Assembly (NCBI RefSeq): GCF_009914755.1
Contig: NC_060936.1
Reading direction: 5' to 3' (one strand)
Length of the DNA stretch: 64,000 bases
Source of the DNA: the human T2T-CHM13v2.0 reference genome, Homo sapiens
Part shown: in pieces, positions 1,370-7,400 of the stretch
Layout: each line of letters opens with the position of its first letter
How positions within the stretch are numbered: position 1 is the first letter of the stretch
Made by a program: the position numbers and the translations under genes
Notes under the pieces: model-generated
Told to the model about the DNA's origin: nothing
Database searches by the model: none
Seen by the model: the letters and a program-made list of their open reading frames with translations, nothing else

Positions 1370-4164
1370 TCAATTCCCACCTATGAGTGAGAATATGCGG
1401 TGTTTGGTTTTTTGTTCTTGTGATAGTTTACTGAGAATGATGATTTCCAATTTCATCCATGTCCCTACAAAGGACATGAACTCATCATTTTTTATGGCTG
1501 CATAGTATTCCATGGTGTATATGTGCCACATTTTCTTAAACCAGTCTATCATTGTTGGACATTTGGGTTGGTTCCAAGTCTTTGCTATTGTGAATAGTGC
1601 CGCGATAAACATACGTGTGCATGTGTCTTTATAGCAGCATGATTTATAGTCCTTTGGGTATATACCCAGTAATGGGATGGCTGGGTCAAATGGTATTTCT
1701 AGCTCTAGATCCCTGAGGAATGGCCACACTGACTTCCACAAGGGTTGAACTAGTTTACAGTCCCACCAACAGTGTAAAAGTGTTCCTATTTCTCCACATC
1801 CTCTCTAGCACCTGTTGTTTCCTGACTTTTTAATGATCGCCATTCTAACTGGTGTGAGATGGTATCTCATTGTGGTTTTGATTTGCATTTCTCTGATGGC
1901 CAGTGATGGTGAGCATTTTTTCATGTGTTTTTTCGCTGCATAAATGTCTTCTTTTGAGAAGTGTCTGTTCATGTCCTTCGCCCACCTTTTGATGGGGTTG
2001 TTTGTTTTTTTCTTGTAAATTTGTTTGAGTTCATTGTAGATTCTGGATATTAGCCCTTTGTCAGATGAGTAGTTTGCGAAAATTTTCTCCTATTTTGTAG
2101 GTTGCCTGTTCACTCTGATGGTAGTTTCTTTTGCTGTGCAGAAGCTCTTTAGTTTAATTAGATCCCATTTGTCAATTTTGGCTTTTGTTGCCATTGCTTT
2201 TGGTGTTTTAGATATGAAGTCCTTGCCCATGCCTATGTCCCGAATGGTAATGCCTAGGTTTTGTTCCAGGGTTTTTATGGTTTTAGGTCTAACGTTTAAG
2301 TCTTTAATCTATCTTGAATTAATTTTTGTATAAGGTGTAAGGAAGGGATCCAGTTTCAGCTTTCTACATATGGCTAGCCAGTTTTCCCAGCACCACTTAT
2401 TAAATAGGGAATCCTTTCCCCATTGCTTGTTTTTCTCAGGTTTGTCAAAGATCAGATAGTTGTAGATATGCGGCGTTATTTGTGAGGGCTCTGTTCTGTT
2501 CCATCGATCTATATCTCTGTTTTGGTACCAGTACCATGCTGTTTTGGTTACTGTAGCCTTGTTGTATAGTTTGAAGTCAGGTAGTGTGATGCCTCCAGCT
2601 TTGTTCTTTTGGCTTAGGATTGACTTGGCGATACGGGCTCTTTTTTGGTTCCATATGAACTTTAAAGTAGTTTTTTCCAATTCTGTGAAGAAAGTCATTG
2701 GTAGCTTGATGGGGATGGCATTGAATCTATAAATTACCTTGGGCAGTATGACCATTTTCATGATATTGATTCTTCCTACCCATGAACATGGAATGTTCTT
2801 CCATTTGTTTGTATCCTCTTTTATTTCATTGAGCAGTGGTTTGTAGTTCTGCTTGAAGAGGTCCTTCATGTCCCTTGTAAGTTGGATTCCTAGGTATTTT
2901 ATTCTCTTTGAAGCAATTGTGAATGGGAATTCACTCATGATTTGGCTCTCTGTTTGTCTGTTATTGGTGTATAAGAATGCTTGTGATTTTTGTACATTGA
3001 TTTTGTATCCTGAGACTTTGCTGAAGTTGCTTATCAGTTTAAGGAGATTTTGGGCTGAGACAATGGGGTTTTCTAGATATACAATCATGTCATCTGCAAA
3101 CAGGGACAATTTGACTTCCTCTTTTCCTAATTGAATACCCTTTATTTCCTTCTCCTGCCTAATTGCCCTGGCCAGAACTTCCAACACTATGTTGAATAGG
3201 AGTGGTGAGAGAGGGCATCCCTGTCTTGTGCCAGTTTTCAAAGGGAATGCTTCCAGTTTTTGCCCATTCAGTATGATACTGGCTGTGGGTTTGTCATAGA
3301 TAGCTCTTATTATTTTGAGATACATCCCATCAATACCTAATTTATTGAGAGTTTTTAGCATGAAGGGCTGTTGAATTTTGTCAAAGGCCTTTTCTGCATC
3401 TATTGAGATAATCATGTGGTTTTTGTCTTTGGTTCTGTTTATATGCTGGATTACATTTATTGATTTGCATATATTGAACCAGCCTTGCATCCCAGGGATG
3501 AAGCCCACTTGATCATGGTGGATAAGCTTTTTGATGTGCTGCTGGATTCATTTTGCCAGTATTTTATTGAGGATTTTTGCATCAATGTTCATCAAGGATA
3601 TTGGTCTAAAATTCTCTTTTTTGGTTGTGTCTCTGCCCGGCTTTGGTATCAGGATGATGCTGGCCTCATAAAATGAGTTAGGGAAGATTCCCTCTTTTTC
3701 TATTGATTGGGATAGTTTCAGAAGGAATGGTACCAATTCCTCCTTATACCTCTGGTAGAATTCGGCTGCGAATCCATCTGGTCCTGGACTCTTTTTGGTT
3801 GGTAAGCTATTGATTATTGCCCCACCCAGAGCCTGTTATTGGTCTATTCAGAGTCAACTTCTTCCTGGTTTAGTCTTGGGAGAGTGTATGTGTCGAGGAA
3901 TGTATCCATTTCTTCTAGATTTTCTAGTTTATTTGCGTAGAGGTGTTTGTAGTATTCTTTGATGGTAGTTTGCATTTCTGTGGGATCGGTGGTGATATCC
4001 CCTTTATCATTTTTTATTGCATCTATTTGATTCTTCTTTCTTTTCTTCTTTATTAGTCTTGCTAGCAGTCTATCAATTTTGTTGATCCTTTCAAAAAACC
4101 AGCTCCTGGATTCATTAATTTTTTGAAGGGTTTTTTGTGTCTCTATTTCCTTCAGTTCTGCTCT
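1370..4164 (-). pseudogene. Outer L1PA ORF2, RT/C-terminal part, disrupted (small indels near 3820-3855, stops at 3548 and 2309)
   Basis: ORF track fragments 3548-3736, 2309-3508 (FADD motif), 1370-1741. Confidence 0.9.
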
Positions 4165-4413
4165 GATTTTAGTTATTTCTTTTTTTTTTTTTTTTAATTT
4201 TTTTTTTTATTATACTCTAAGTTTTAGGGTACATGTGCACATTGTGCAGGTTAGTTACATATGTATACATGTGCCATGCTGGTGCGCTGCACCCACTAAC
4301 GTGTCATCTAGCATTAGGTATATCTCCCAATGCTATCCCTCCCCCCTCCCCCGACCCCACCACAGTCCCCAGAGTGTGATATTCCCCTTCCTGTGTCCAT
4401 GTGATCTCATTGT

Positions 4414-7400
4414 TCAATTCCCACCTATGAGTGAGAATATGCAGTGTTTGGTTTTTTGTTCTTGCGATAGTTTACTGAGAATGATGGTTTCCAATTTCAT
4501 CCACGTCCCTACAAAGGACATGAACTCATCATTTTTTATGGCTGCATAGTATTCCATGGTGTATAAGTGCCACATTTTCTTAATCCAGTCTATCATTGTT
4601 GGACATTTGGGTTGGTTCCAAGTCTTTGCTATTGTGAATAGTGCCGCAATAAACATACGTGTGCATGTGTCTTTATAGCAGCATGATTTATAGTCCTTTG
4701 GGTATATACCCAGTAATGGGATGGCTGGGTCAAATGGTATTTCTAGTTCTAGATCCCTGAGGAATCGCCACACTGACTTCCACAATGGTTGAACTAGTTT
4801 ACAGTCCCACCAACAGTGTAAAAGTGTTCCTATTTCTCCACATCCTCTCCAGCACCTGTTGTTTCCTGACTTTTTAATGATTGCCATTCTAACTGGTGTG
4901 AGATGATATCTCATAGTGGTTTTGATTTGCATTTCTCTGATGGCCAGTGATGATGAGCATTTCTTCATGTGTTTTTTGGCTGCATAAATGTCTTCTTTTG
5001 AGAAGTGTCTGTTCATGTCCTTCGCCCACTTTTTGATGGGGTTGTTTGTTTTTTTCTTGTAAATTTGTTTGAGTTCATTGTAGATTCTGGATATTAGCCC
5101 TTTGTCAGATGAGTAGGTTGCGAAAATTTTCTCCCATGTTGTAGGTTGCCTGTTCACTCTGATGGTAGTTTCTTTTGCTGTGCAGAAGCTCTTGAGTTTA
5201 ATTAGATCCCATTTGTCAATTTTGGCTTTTGTTGCCATTGCTTTTGGTGTTTTGGACATGAAGTCCTTGCCCACGCCTATGTCCTGAATGGTAATGCCTA
5301 GGTTTTCCTTTAGGGTTTTTATGGTTTTAGGTCTAACGTTTAAATCTTTAATCCATCTTGAATTGATTTTTGTATAAGGTGTAAGGAAGGGATCCAGTTT
5401 CAGCTTTCTACATATGGCTAGCCAGTTTTCCCAGCACCATTTATTAAATAGGGAATCCTTTCCCCATTGCTTGTTTTTCTCAGGTTTGTCAAAGATCAGA
5501 TAGTTGTAGATATGCGGCATTATTTCTGAGGGCTCTGTTCTGTTCCATTGATCTATATCTCTGTTTTGGTACCAGTACCATGCTGTTTTGGTTACTGTAG
5601 CCTTGTAGTATAGTTTGAAGTCAGGTAGTGTGATGCCTCCAGCTTTGTTCTTTTGGCTTAGGATTGACTTGGCGATGCGGGCTCTTTTTTGGTTCCATAT
5701 GAACTTTAAAGTAGTTTTTTCCAATTCTGTGAAGAAAGTCATTGGTAGCTTGATGGGGATGGCATTGAATCTGTAAATTACCTTGGGCAGTATGGCCATT
5801 TTCACGATATTGATTCTTCCTACCCATGAGCATGGAATGTTCTTCCATTTGTTTGTGTCCTCTTTTATTTCCTTGAGCAGTGGTTTGTAGTTCTCCTTGA
5901 AGAGGTCCTTCACATCCCTTGTAAGTTGGATTCCTAGGTATTTTATTCTCTTTGAAGCAATTGTGAATGGGAGTTCACTCATGATTTGGCTCTCTGTTTG
6001 TCTGTTGTTGGTGTATAAGAATGCTTGTGATTTTTGTACATTGATTTTGTATCCTGAGACTTTGCTGAAGTTGCTTATCAGCTTAAGGAGATTTTGGGCT
6101 GAGACGATGGGGTTTTCTAGATAAACAATCATGTCATCTGCAAACAGGGACAATTTGACTTCCTCTTTTCCTAATTGAATACCCTTTATTTCCTTCTCCT
6201 GCCTGATTGCCCTGGCCAGAACTTCCAACACTATGTTGAATAGGAGCGGTGAGAGAGGGCATCCCTGTCTTGTGCCAGTTTTCAAAGGGAATGCTTCCAG
6301 TTTTTGCCCATTCAGTATGATATTGGCTGTGGGTTTGTCATAGATAGCTCTTATTATTTTGAAATACATCCCATCAATACCTAATTTATTGAGAGTTTTT
6401 AGCATGAAGGGTTGTTGAATTTTGTCAAAGGCTTTTTCTGCATCTATTGAGATAATCATGTGGTTTTTGTCTTTGGTTCTGTTTATATGCTGGATTACAT
6501 TTATTGATTTGCGTATATTGAATCAGCCTTGCATCCCAGGGATGAAGCCCACTTGATCATGGTGGATAAGCTTTTTGATGTGCTGCTGGATTCGGTTTGC
6601 CAGTATTTTATTGAGGATTTTTGCATCAATGTTCATCAAGGATATTGGTCTAAAATTCTCTTTTTTGGTTGTGTCTCTGCCCGGCTTTGGTATCAGAATG
6701 ATGCTGGCCTCATAAAATGAGTTAGGGAGGATTCCCTCTTTTTCTATTGATTGGAATAGTTTCAGAAGGAATGGTACCAGTTCCTCCTCATACCTCTGGT
6801 AGAATTCGGCTGTGAATCCATCTGGTCCTGGACTCTTTTTGGTTGGTAAACTATTGATTATTGCCACAATTTCAGAGCCTGTTATTGGTCTATTCAGAGA
6901 TTCAACTTCTTCCTGGTTTAGTCTTGGGAGAGTGTATGTGTCGAGGAATGTATCCATTTCTTCTAGATTTTCTAGTTTATTTGCGTAGAGGTGTTTGTAG
7001 TATTCTCTGATGGTAGTTTGTATTTCTGTGGGATCGGTGGTGATATCCCCTTTATCATTTTTTATTGTGTCTATTTGATTCTTCTCTCTTTTTTTCTTTA
7101 TTAGTCTTGCTAGCGGTCTATCAATTTTGTTGATCCTTTCAAAAAACCAGCTCCTGGATTCGTTGATTTTTTGAAGGGTTTTTTGTGTCTCTATTTCCTT
7201 CAGTTCTGCTCTGATTTTAGTTATTTCTTGCCTTCTGCTAGCTTTTGAATGTGTTTGCTCTTGCTTTTCTAGTTCTTTTAATTGTGATGTTAGGGTGTCA
7301 ATTTTGGATCTTTCCTGCTTTCTCTTGTAGGCATTTAGTGCTATAAATTTCCCTCTACACACTGCTTTGAATGCGTCCCAGAGATTCTGGTATGTGGTGT

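What the first reader, a model, noticed from the sequence alone, without database searches (positions are those of the whole stretch)
3479..6525. L1HS one base from a full-length ORF2, with a wild-type repair template 3 kb away
Seen: the inner L1HS has an intact 5'UTR, ORF1 and an in-frame 1275-codon ORF2 whose only frame lesion is W573* (t at 6523). The host L1PA3 has the wild-type TGG at the homologous site (cca at 3479-3481, 3044 bp away). Inference: given the conversion signal above, a short conversion tract or an ancestral allele could restore ORF2, so the nest could act as a self-repairing reservoir for a retrotransposition-competent L1. A single crossover between the repeats could also produce a chimeric single L1.
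Basis: partly seen in the sequence, partly recalled or inferred. Interest (0 to 1): 0.75.

Follow-up and report, generated by a model that had tools for sequence, protein, structure and literature searches.

The report
Dead young L1 nested in old L1
A young full-length human L1 jumping gene, disabled by a single stop codon, sits inside an older dead L1 that has copied a few short stretches of its own decayed sequence into it, so the nest looks more like a place where the young copy ages faster than one where it repairs itself.

Summary
A 6.05-kb L1HS (window 10227-4180, minus strand) has classical insertion hallmarks and an open 338-codon ORF1. Its 1275-codon ORF2 has one lesion, TGA at codon 573 (6525-6523). 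It lies in the same orientation inside a full-length, decayed older L1 that reads TGG 3044 bp away.

The stop is private: 23 of 23 other L1HS copies read tryptophan. The 29 other genomic copies with this TGA are older elements.

The premise of sequence exchange is real, but it lies elsewhere. In window 8696-8074 (ORF1 end to ORF2 start) the inner element carries the host's base at 7 sites in 4 short patches. Three of these are rare transversions that co-occur only in this pair. They brought in six amino-acid changes, including ORF1 W209 and H305.

Near the stop, host-like sites do not exceed the background seen in 23 control copies. The host matches other L1HS copies only across an 80-bp span around codon 573, bounded by its own stop at codon 550 and a missense at codon 577. 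A single crossover would import three more host stops.

"Self-repairing reservoir" is possible in principle but has no evidence here. This is an ordinary member of a known class, reported as 92 human loci.

The parts
4180..10227 (-). Inner full-length L1HS (pre-Ta type): 5'UTR 10227-9322, ORF1, ORF2, 3'UTR, A-tail 4208-4180
   Evidence: It is 99.03-99.14% identical to 23 full-length L1HS copies. The 3'UTR trinucleotide is ACG.
10228..10244 (-). 5' copy of the inner element's target-site duplication (AAGAAATAACTAAAATC; host ORF2 sequence)
4165..4181 (-). 3' copy of the inner element's target-site duplication. The first two A are ambiguous with the A-tail.
8305..9321 (-). Inner ORF1, open, 338 codons. 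Rare residues: H101, W209, T298, H305.
4414..8241 (-). Inner ORF2 frame, 1275 codons, with one internal stop
6523..6525 (-). TGA at ORF2 codon 573, inside the reverse-transcriptase domain. It falls between Pfam RVT_1 profile positions 47 and 53.
   Evidence: 23 of 23 L1HS copies encode W here.
8074..8696 (-). Stretch of the inner element with 4 host-derived patches. Host-like sites: 8696; 8429 and 8409; 8199, 8184 and 8181; 8074. Outer limits of the patches: 8738-8598, 8492-8363, 8257-8157, 8097-8058.
11088..11710 (-). Homologous donor stretch in the host's 5' half (offset +3014)
   Evidence: The 27-mers are found at both places.
10228..13370 (-). Host L1, 5' part (5'UTR with a 128-bp extra segment, broken ORF1, start of ORF2). 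Host target-site duplication at 13371-13382.
1148..4181 (-). Host L1, 3' part (rest of ORF2, 3'UTR with GAG, A-rich tail). Host target-site duplication at 1136-1147.
3479..3481 (-). Host codon homologous to inner codon 573; reads TGG
3548..3550 (-). Host TGA at the position of codon 550, 70 bp 5' of the homologous site
3467..3469 (-). Host TGC (Cys) where the inner element has CGC (Arg577), 10 bp 3' of the homologous site

Best explanation
**What it is.** A pre-Ta L1HS inserted by ordinary target-primed reverse transcription, in sense orientation, into ORF2 of an older full-length L1. The host is L1PA3-like or older. The nest lies 22.6 kb upstream of SCN8A on the opposite strand.

**Why it is inactive.** The inner copy later acquired a private point mutation that turns ORF2 codon 573, in the reverse-transcriptase domain, into a stop. 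It cannot mobilise itself. It belongs to the known class of full-length L1s with an open ORF1 and an in-frame ORF2 that carries a premature stop. If transcribed, it would encode ORF1p plus a 572-residue ORF2 fragment with a complete endonuclease domain.

**Exchange with the host.** Because guest and host are about 96-97% identical direct repeats 3 kb apart, they have undergone non-allelic gene conversion. The likely event is one heteroduplex repaired in patches, or a few short events. It wrote host sequence into the inner element at 7 sites in 4 patches, each under 142 bp, spanning the ORF1 end to the ORF2 start.

**Net effect.** The exchange seen so far is decay. It added six amino-acid changes, two of them private mutations of the dead host.

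**Shown versus inferred.** Shown: anatomy, privacy of the stop, the shared rare variants, and the host's lesions. Inferred: direction (host to inner), mechanism (heteroduplex or short patch), timing, and any expression.
For: **Anatomy and hallmarks:**

**Subfamily:** 99.03-99.14% identity to 23 L1HS copies. The 3'UTR reads ACG, which passages of PMC7026601 call diagnostic for pre-Ta.

**Stop is private:** 0 of 23 L1HS copies share it. The other 29 carriers of the TGA 24-mer are at most 98.6% identical to the inner element.

**Conversion:**
- Of 28 inner states shared by at most 3 of 23 L1HS copies, 11 equal the host base, and 7 of those lie within 623 bp.
- In the 23 control L1HS copies the same count against this host is 0-6 (57 in total) and scattered. 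The Poisson probability of 7 or more in 623 bp is about 1e-8, or about 1e-7 after correcting for window count.
- At 8696, 8409 and 8074 the shared base is absent from 23 of 23 L1HS copies and 12 of 12 older copies.
- The 27-mers carrying these bases occur 46, 55 and 5 times genome-wide. The common form of the first occurs 3278 times. By comparing the full place lists, no other element has two of them.
- At 8429, 8199, 8184 and 8181 the inner element has the base of 12 of 12 older copies. This gives the direction as host to inner.
- The inner element's own 16 private changes are 14 transitions, whereas the three shared rare changes are all transversions.

**Domains:** a complete Exo_endo_phos domain at residues 11-230, with RVT_1 split by the stop. 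PDB matches to ORF1p and ORF2p.

**Known class:** 92 such human loci, with truncated endonuclease-bearing products reported as toxic (PMC4176336 abstract and sections 27 and 34).
Against: - The converted tract is discontinuous. Eighteen sites between the patches keep the L1HS base, so a single simple tract does not fit.
- A run-length test on the two sequences alone is not significant: P = 0.34 for the longest run and 0.065 for the top four.
- For the three pair-private sites alone, the direction is not proven.
- The solved ORF2p sequence 8sxt has V15 and P21, and 1 of 23 L1HS copies has V15. Some of the 'older' states therefore occur naturally in young L1s.
- The older-copy panels cover only two windows of about 0.7-0.85 kb. 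Exchange elsewhere, or from inner to host, is poorly sampled.
- Only one haplotype was examined.
Confidence: 0.8

Rival explanations
1. One reading: the nest is a self-repairing reservoir. A short conversion patch from the host, or a surviving ancestral allele, gives an ORF2-open and retrotransposition-competent inner L1.
For: - Host-to-inner patches exist in the same element, each under 41 to under 142 bp.
- The host reads TGG at the homologous codon.
- Loci with both active and inactive alleles are reported as common (PMC10883270 passages).
- Some pre-Ta elements are still competent (PMC7026601 passage).
Against: - No patch above background lies near the stop.
- The clean donor span is 80 bp, between the host's own stop at codon 550 and a Cys at codon 577.
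- Only 42-412 of 6050 bp appear to have been overwritten since insertion (my arithmetic).
- 15 other rare residues are present. W209 lies between R206 and R210/R211, whose joint mutation abolishes RNA binding and lowers retrotransposition (PMC9839780 passages).
- No second copy in this genome carries two of the marker 27-mers, so no offspring postdating the conversion are visible.
- The locus is not listed among loci intact in hg38, CHM1 or CHM13 (my coordinate is an estimate).
Confidence: 0.04
2. No exchange took place. The seven host-like sites are parallel mutations or ancestral polymorphisms of an unusual L1HS lineage.
For: - Control L1HS copies show 0-6 host-like private states by chance.
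- V15 and P21 occur in a solved ORF2p sequence.
- The W209 and H305 27-mers each occur in about 45-55 copies genome-wide.
- The run-length test is not significant.
Against: - Three rare transversions co-occur only in these two neighbours.
- The seven sites lie within 623 bp (Poisson probability about 1e-8).
- The 7 pre-Ta copies in the panel lack all seven states, apart from one copy with V15 whose subtype I did not record.
Confidence: 0.05
3. Exchange took place, but at the moment of insertion rather than later. The new cDNA paired with the homologous host L1, with template switching or heteroduplex formation during target-primed reverse transcription.
For: The target was an L1 in the same orientation. 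Recombination of integrating L1 cDNA with resident L1s is known from cell culture (recalled; Gilbert et al. 2005 appears only in the reference list seen).
Against: - The junctions are clean, with a full 5' end, A-tail and a 15-17 bp duplication.
- The patches lie 1.5-2.2 kb inside the element and pair with host sequence about 0.9-1.5 kb from the insertion point.
Confidence: 0.06
4. At the three pair-private sites, the direction of exchange was inner to host. The mutations arose in the young copy and were copied into the old one.
For: About 2 private mutations are expected in 623 bp of the inner element at its own density (my arithmetic).
Against: - The four interleaved family-level sites run host to inner.
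- All three changes are transversions, whereas 14 of the inner element's 16 other private changes are transitions. Among the host's 10 other private changes in this window, 3 are transversions.
Confidence: 0.1

Closest known systems
Full-length human L1 loci with intact ORF1 and an in-frame ORF2 bearing a premature stop (Kines et al. 2014, PMC4176336; abstract and sections 27 and 34 read)
   Same: Open ORF1. ORF2 has no gaps or frameshifts and one premature stop. A complete endonuclease domain lies upstream of the stop.
   Different: Here the stop lies in the RT domain at codon 573, and the element is nested in another L1. I could not check whether this locus is among their 92. Expression was not tested.
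Non-allelic gene conversion between nearby transposable-element copies. For Alu this is summarised in Fawcett & Innan 2019 (PMC6598467 passages), which cites Aleshin & Zhi 2010. For LINEs, see Tremblay et al. 2000, seen only as cited in PMC1920257.
   Same: Mosaic of diagnostic sites, copies under 10 kb apart, short tracts.
   Different: This is a guest/host pair of full-length L1s, not neighbouring Alus. The tract is patchy, and the old dead copy is the donor to the young one.
Allelic heterogeneity of L1 loci, or 'hidden' active alleles (Yang et al. 2023, PMC10883270; passages and Dataset EV1 searched)
   Same: The idea that an inactive reference allele may coexist with an intact one.
   Different: No intact allele of this locus is listed there. 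Only one haplotype was seen here.
L1-L1 unequal homologous recombination deletions (recalled from memory; not looked up)
   Same: Direct repeats 3.0 kb apart could recombine and delete about 3 kb.
   Different: No such product is seen here. Either product would still carry stops.

Membership tests
L1HS, pre-Ta subset | Full-length architecture with target-site duplication and A-tail | tested here: met
L1HS, pre-Ta subset | About 99% identity to other full-length L1HS copies | tested here: met
   99.03-99.14% identity to 23 copies
L1HS, pre-Ta subset | 3'UTR trinucleotide ACG (Ta has ACA; L1PA2 and older have GAG) | tested here: met
   The inner element has ACG. The panel has 15 ACA, 7 ACG and 1 unmatched. 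The rule comes from PMC7026601 passages; Ta = ACA is recalled.
L1HS, pre-Ta subset | Lacks the 129-bp ZNF93-bound 5'UTR segment | tested here: met
   The host has 128 bp that the inner element lacks. The rule comes from PMC7110667 passages.
Retrotransposition-competent L1 | Both ORFs open | tested here: not met
   Stop at ORF2 codon 573
Retrotransposition-competent L1 | Activity in a retrotransposition assay | not testable with these tools
   Bench assay
Full-length L1 with premature ORF2 stop and intact endonuclease (Kines class) | Intact ORF1; ORF2 without gaps or frameshifts and with a premature stop | tested here: met
Full-length L1 with premature ORF2 stop and intact endonuclease (Kines class) | Complete endonuclease domain upstream of the stop | tested here: met
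   Pfam Exo_endo_phos at residues 11-230, covering profile 1-225 of 225. Match to 1vyb over residues 1-238, E = 2.7e-155.
Full-length L1 with premature ORF2 stop and intact endonuclease (Kines class) | The truncated protein is actually made | not testable with these tools
   No expression data here
L1PA3 (host) | Older-type 3'UTR (GAG) and subfamily-level sequence | tested here: inconclusive
   The host has GAG and is 95-97% identical to its best genomic matches. It keeps the 128/129-bp segment that was lost within L1PA3, so it is an early L1PA3 or L1PA4. No subfamily library was available.
Non-allelic gene conversion | Derived variants shared only by the two paralogues | tested here: met
   Three sites absent from 23 of 23 L1HS and 12 of 12 older copies. 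The 27-mers co-occur only in this pair.
Non-allelic gene conversion | Clustering beyond chance, with a control | tested here: met
   7 sites in 623 bp, against 0-6 per 6 kb in 23 control copies. The run-length test alone is not significant.
Non-allelic gene conversion | Direction fixed by an outgroup orthologue of the host | not testable with these tools
   No ape genome is held here

The most novel reading that the evidence does not exclude
Short-patch conversion from the surrounding dead L1 is frequent enough at this nest that ORF2-open alleles of the inner element arise and segregate at low frequency in people. More generally, same-orientation L1-in-L1 nests would be conversion hot spots. 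They would mostly speed the decay of young L1s and occasionally rescue them, blurring subfamily and age assignments.
Probability: 0.05. Interest if true: 0.6.

Novelty: new member of a known kind. Interest (0 to 1): 0.3.

Why it matters
Taken alone, the locus is ordinary: one more full-length L1 disabled by a premature stop.

The useful result is a clean, checkable example of a decayed host L1 overwriting parts of a young nested L1. The three rare marker bases make the exchange hard to dismiss.

If this is common in L1-in-L1 nests, three things follow:
- Nested young L1s would appear older or mosaic.
- Their coding capacity would erode faster than by point mutation alone.
- Catalogues of potentially active L1s built from one reference haplotype would need allele-level checks at such nests.

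It gives no reason to regard this locus as a likely active source element.

Tried and rejected
- **A stop-bearing L1HS sub-lineage.** Rejected. The 29 other carriers of the TGA 24-mer are 90.9-98.6% identical to the inner element. Four near the starts of C14, C15, C21 and C22 look like one duplicated copy.
- **Host-like sites flanking the stop (6790, 6477, 6368) as nearby conversion patches.** Rejected as evidence. Control copies show 0-6 such sites. Site 6368 is a CpG transition also seen in other copies. Site 6790 can follow from the inner element's own neighbouring change at 6789.
- **Run-length test on the two sequences.** Not significant.
- **Mini-survey of other nested L1HS copies.** None of the 23 panel copies has a same-orientation L1 in its 1.5-kb flanks. 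Only two short antisense fragments were found.
- **Cutting 30 loci with the host 5' query.** I used 12 short pieces instead, twice. The older-copy panels therefore cover only two windows.
- **Papers not held.** PMC2950799 and PMC85044.
- **Literature on conversion in nested L1s or conversion-mediated rescue of L1.** The searches found no paper on either. This is not proof that none exists.
- **Kines supplement.** It was listed but not read, so I do not know whether this locus is among their 92.

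
Full report
**Observation**

The window is chr12:51,522,001-51,586,000 of the assembly held as G000. All L1 features lie on the minus strand.
- ORF listing gives ORF1 at 9321-8305 (338 aa). It gives two adjoining ORF2 pieces at 8241-6523 and 6459-4414.
- One-frame translation of 8241-4414 gives 1275 codons with a single internal stop at codon 573.
- The codon reads TGA at 6525-6523. The host's homologous codon reads TGG at 3481-3479. They are 3044 bp apart.
- The inner element starts at 10227 and has an A-tail at 4208-4180. 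It is flanked by a 15-17 bp target-site duplication at 10228-10244 and 4165-4181.
- The host is also full length (13370 to 1148) and has its own duplication at 13371-13382 and 1136-1147.
- Guest and host are 96.2-96.9% identical in their coding parts.

**What the two elements are**

Inner element:
- It is 99.03-99.14% identical to 23 full-length L1HS copies elsewhere in the genome.
- Its 3'UTR trinucleotide is ACG. Passages of PMC7026601 call this diagnostic of the pre-Ta subset.
- ORF1p matches the solved ORF1p structures, and ORF2p matches the solved ORF2p structures.
- Pfam finds a complete endonuclease domain at residues 11-230 of the 572-residue N-terminal piece. It finds an RT domain split by the stop: profile positions 1-47 before it and 53-205 after it.

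Host element:
- It has GAG at the 3'UTR diagnostic site and a 128-bp 5'UTR segment that the inner element lacks.
- This segment corresponds to the 129-bp ZNF93-bound segment lost within L1PA3 (PMC7110667 passages).
- The host is therefore an early L1PA3 or L1PA4. I could not settle which.
- In the inner element's frame, the host's ORF2 has two 2-bp deletions (codons 447/448 and 458), a TGA at codon 550, and TAG at codons 963, 1036 and 1131.

**Is the stop a private lesion?**

- None of the 23 L1HS copies has it.
- An exact 24-mer with the TGA occurs 30 times in the genome. The TGG form occurs 4130 times.
- The 29 other TGA copies are 90.9-98.6% identical to the inner element, so they are older elements hit independently. 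Four near the starts of C14, C15, C21 and C22 have nearly equal identity values and may be one duplicated copy.

The stop therefore arose in this copy, or at its insertion. It was not inherited from a stop-bearing lineage.

**Has the nest exchanged sequence?**

Yes, but not at the stop.
- The inner element has 28 states shared by at most 3 of the 23 L1HS copies. This total is unremarkable, since the panel members range from 6 to 28.
- Eleven of the 28 equal the host's base, and seven of those lie within 623 bp, at window 8696-8074.
- As a control, I counted the private states of each of the 23 unrelated L1HS copies that happen to equal this host's base. The range is 0-6, the total is 57, and the sites are scattered.
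- That background gives a Poisson probability of about 1e-8 for seven in 623 bp, or about 1e-7 after allowing for the number of windows.
- The four host-like sites outside the cluster (9854, 6790, 6477, 6368) are within background.

Twelve older L1 copies that best match the host were fetched for this stretch. They let the sites be classified.
- At 8429, 8199, 8184 and 8181 the inner element has the base of 12 of 12 older copies, whereas 22-23 of 23 L1HS copies differ.
- At 8696, 8409 and 8074 the base shared by guest and host is absent from all 23 L1HS copies and all 12 older copies.
- Genome-wide, the 27-mers carrying these three bases occur 46, 55 and 5 times. The common form of the first occurs 3278 times.
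- Comparing the complete place lists, the only elements with more than one of them are the guest and the host.
- All three are transversions. Fourteen of the inner element's other 16 private changes are transitions.

I conclude that host sequence was copied into the guest.

**Shape of the tract**

The tract is discontinuous. Eighteen sites between the converted ones keep the L1HS base. That gives four patches with outer limits of 141, 130, 101 and 40 bp. This fits either patchy repair of one heteroduplex or several short events.

Discontinuous tracts are discussed for human cells in PMC3974634 (passages). Tracts as short as 13 bp between LINEs are cited in PMC1920257 (passage). A run-length test on the two sequences alone is not significant.

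**Consequences for coding**

The patches changed ORF1 residues 209 (W), 298 (T) and 305 (H), and ORF2 residues 15 (V), 20 (A) and 21 (P).
- W209 and H305 are private mutations of the dead host.
- Residue 209 lies between R206 and R210/R211. Their joint mutation impairs RNA binding and retrotransposition (PMC9839780 passages).
- The solved ORF2p 8sxt has V15 and P21, so those two residues are tolerated in nature.
- In total the inner element has 4 rare ORF1 residues, 11 rare ORF2 residues and the stop.

**The repair idea**

The host agrees with other L1HS copies around codon 573 only between 6514 and 6593.
- Ten bp to the 3' side it has Cys for Arg577.
- Seventy bp to the 5' side it has its own stop at codon 550.

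By my arithmetic, between 42 and 412 of 6050 bp have been overwritten since insertion. The chance that any given site is hit in a comparable time is about 1-7%. Only a minority of such patches would stay inside the 80-bp span. Over the same period the element gained about 20 point changes.

A single crossover in the 3' halves would attach the host's three TAG stops. A crossover in the 5' halves would keep the inner stop.

No other copy in this genome carries two of the marker 27-mers, so no offspring postdating the exchange are visible.

Yang et al. Dataset EV1 tabulates L1 loci with their intactness in hg38, CHM13 and CHM1. It has no chr12 row at my estimated coordinates. I did not verify its inclusion rule.

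**Comparison with what is known**

- Kines et al. counted 92 human full-length L1 loci with intact ORF1 and an in-frame ORF2 bearing premature stops. They showed that endonuclease-bearing fragments can be toxic and that stop-bearing constructs support low Alu mobilisation (PMC4176336 abstract and sections 27 and 34). This locus fits that class by sequence.
- Conversion between nearby repeat copies, raised within 10 kb, is established for Alu (PMC6598467 passages).
- Nesting of L1HS in older LINEs is common (PMC7026601 passages).
- My searches found no paper describing host-to-guest conversion in a nested L1 pair, or conversion-mediated rescue of an L1. That is not proof that none exists.

**Verdict**

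- The reservoir reading is unsupported.
- The locus is an ordinary dead L1 with an instructive conversion scar.

Noticed in passing
window 1148-4181 (host ORF2, minus strand): The host carries three TGG-to-TAG nonsense codons (codons 963, 1036 and 1131 in the inner element's numbering), a CGA-to-TGA at codon 550, and two 2-bp deletions at codons 447/448 and 458. Three W-to-TAG changes in one element is a G-to-A pattern in GG context, which could be looked at for editing.
   Followed up: partly
G000 genome-wide; loci L025-L053: The same TGG-to-TGA change at ORF2 codon 573 occurs in 29 other, older L1 copies, against 4130 copies with TGG. Four of them lie near the starts of contigs C14, C15, C21 and C22 with nearly equal identity, probably one copy spread by duplication.
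   Followed up: partly
window 9322-10227 relative to 32795: The inner L1 is antisense to SCN8A, with its 5' end 22.6 kb upstream of exon 1. An L1 antisense promoter would point towards the gene.
   Followed up: no
window 12460-12590 approx. (host 5'UTR): The host keeps a 128-bp 5'UTR segment that the inner element lacks. It matches the 129-bp ZNF93-bound segment described for older L1PA elements.
   Followed up: partly
G000 C19:30.62-30.80 Mb and C10:20.46-20.55 Mb: Three copies each of the rare W209-type and H305-type 27-mers lie within 90-180 kb of one another. This suggests local duplications of L1-bearing segments.
   Followed up: no
window 6789-6790: The inner element has two adjacent private changes (TAC AAG in other L1HS copies, TAT GAG here). 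The first could be a CpG transition made possible by the second.
   Followed up: partly
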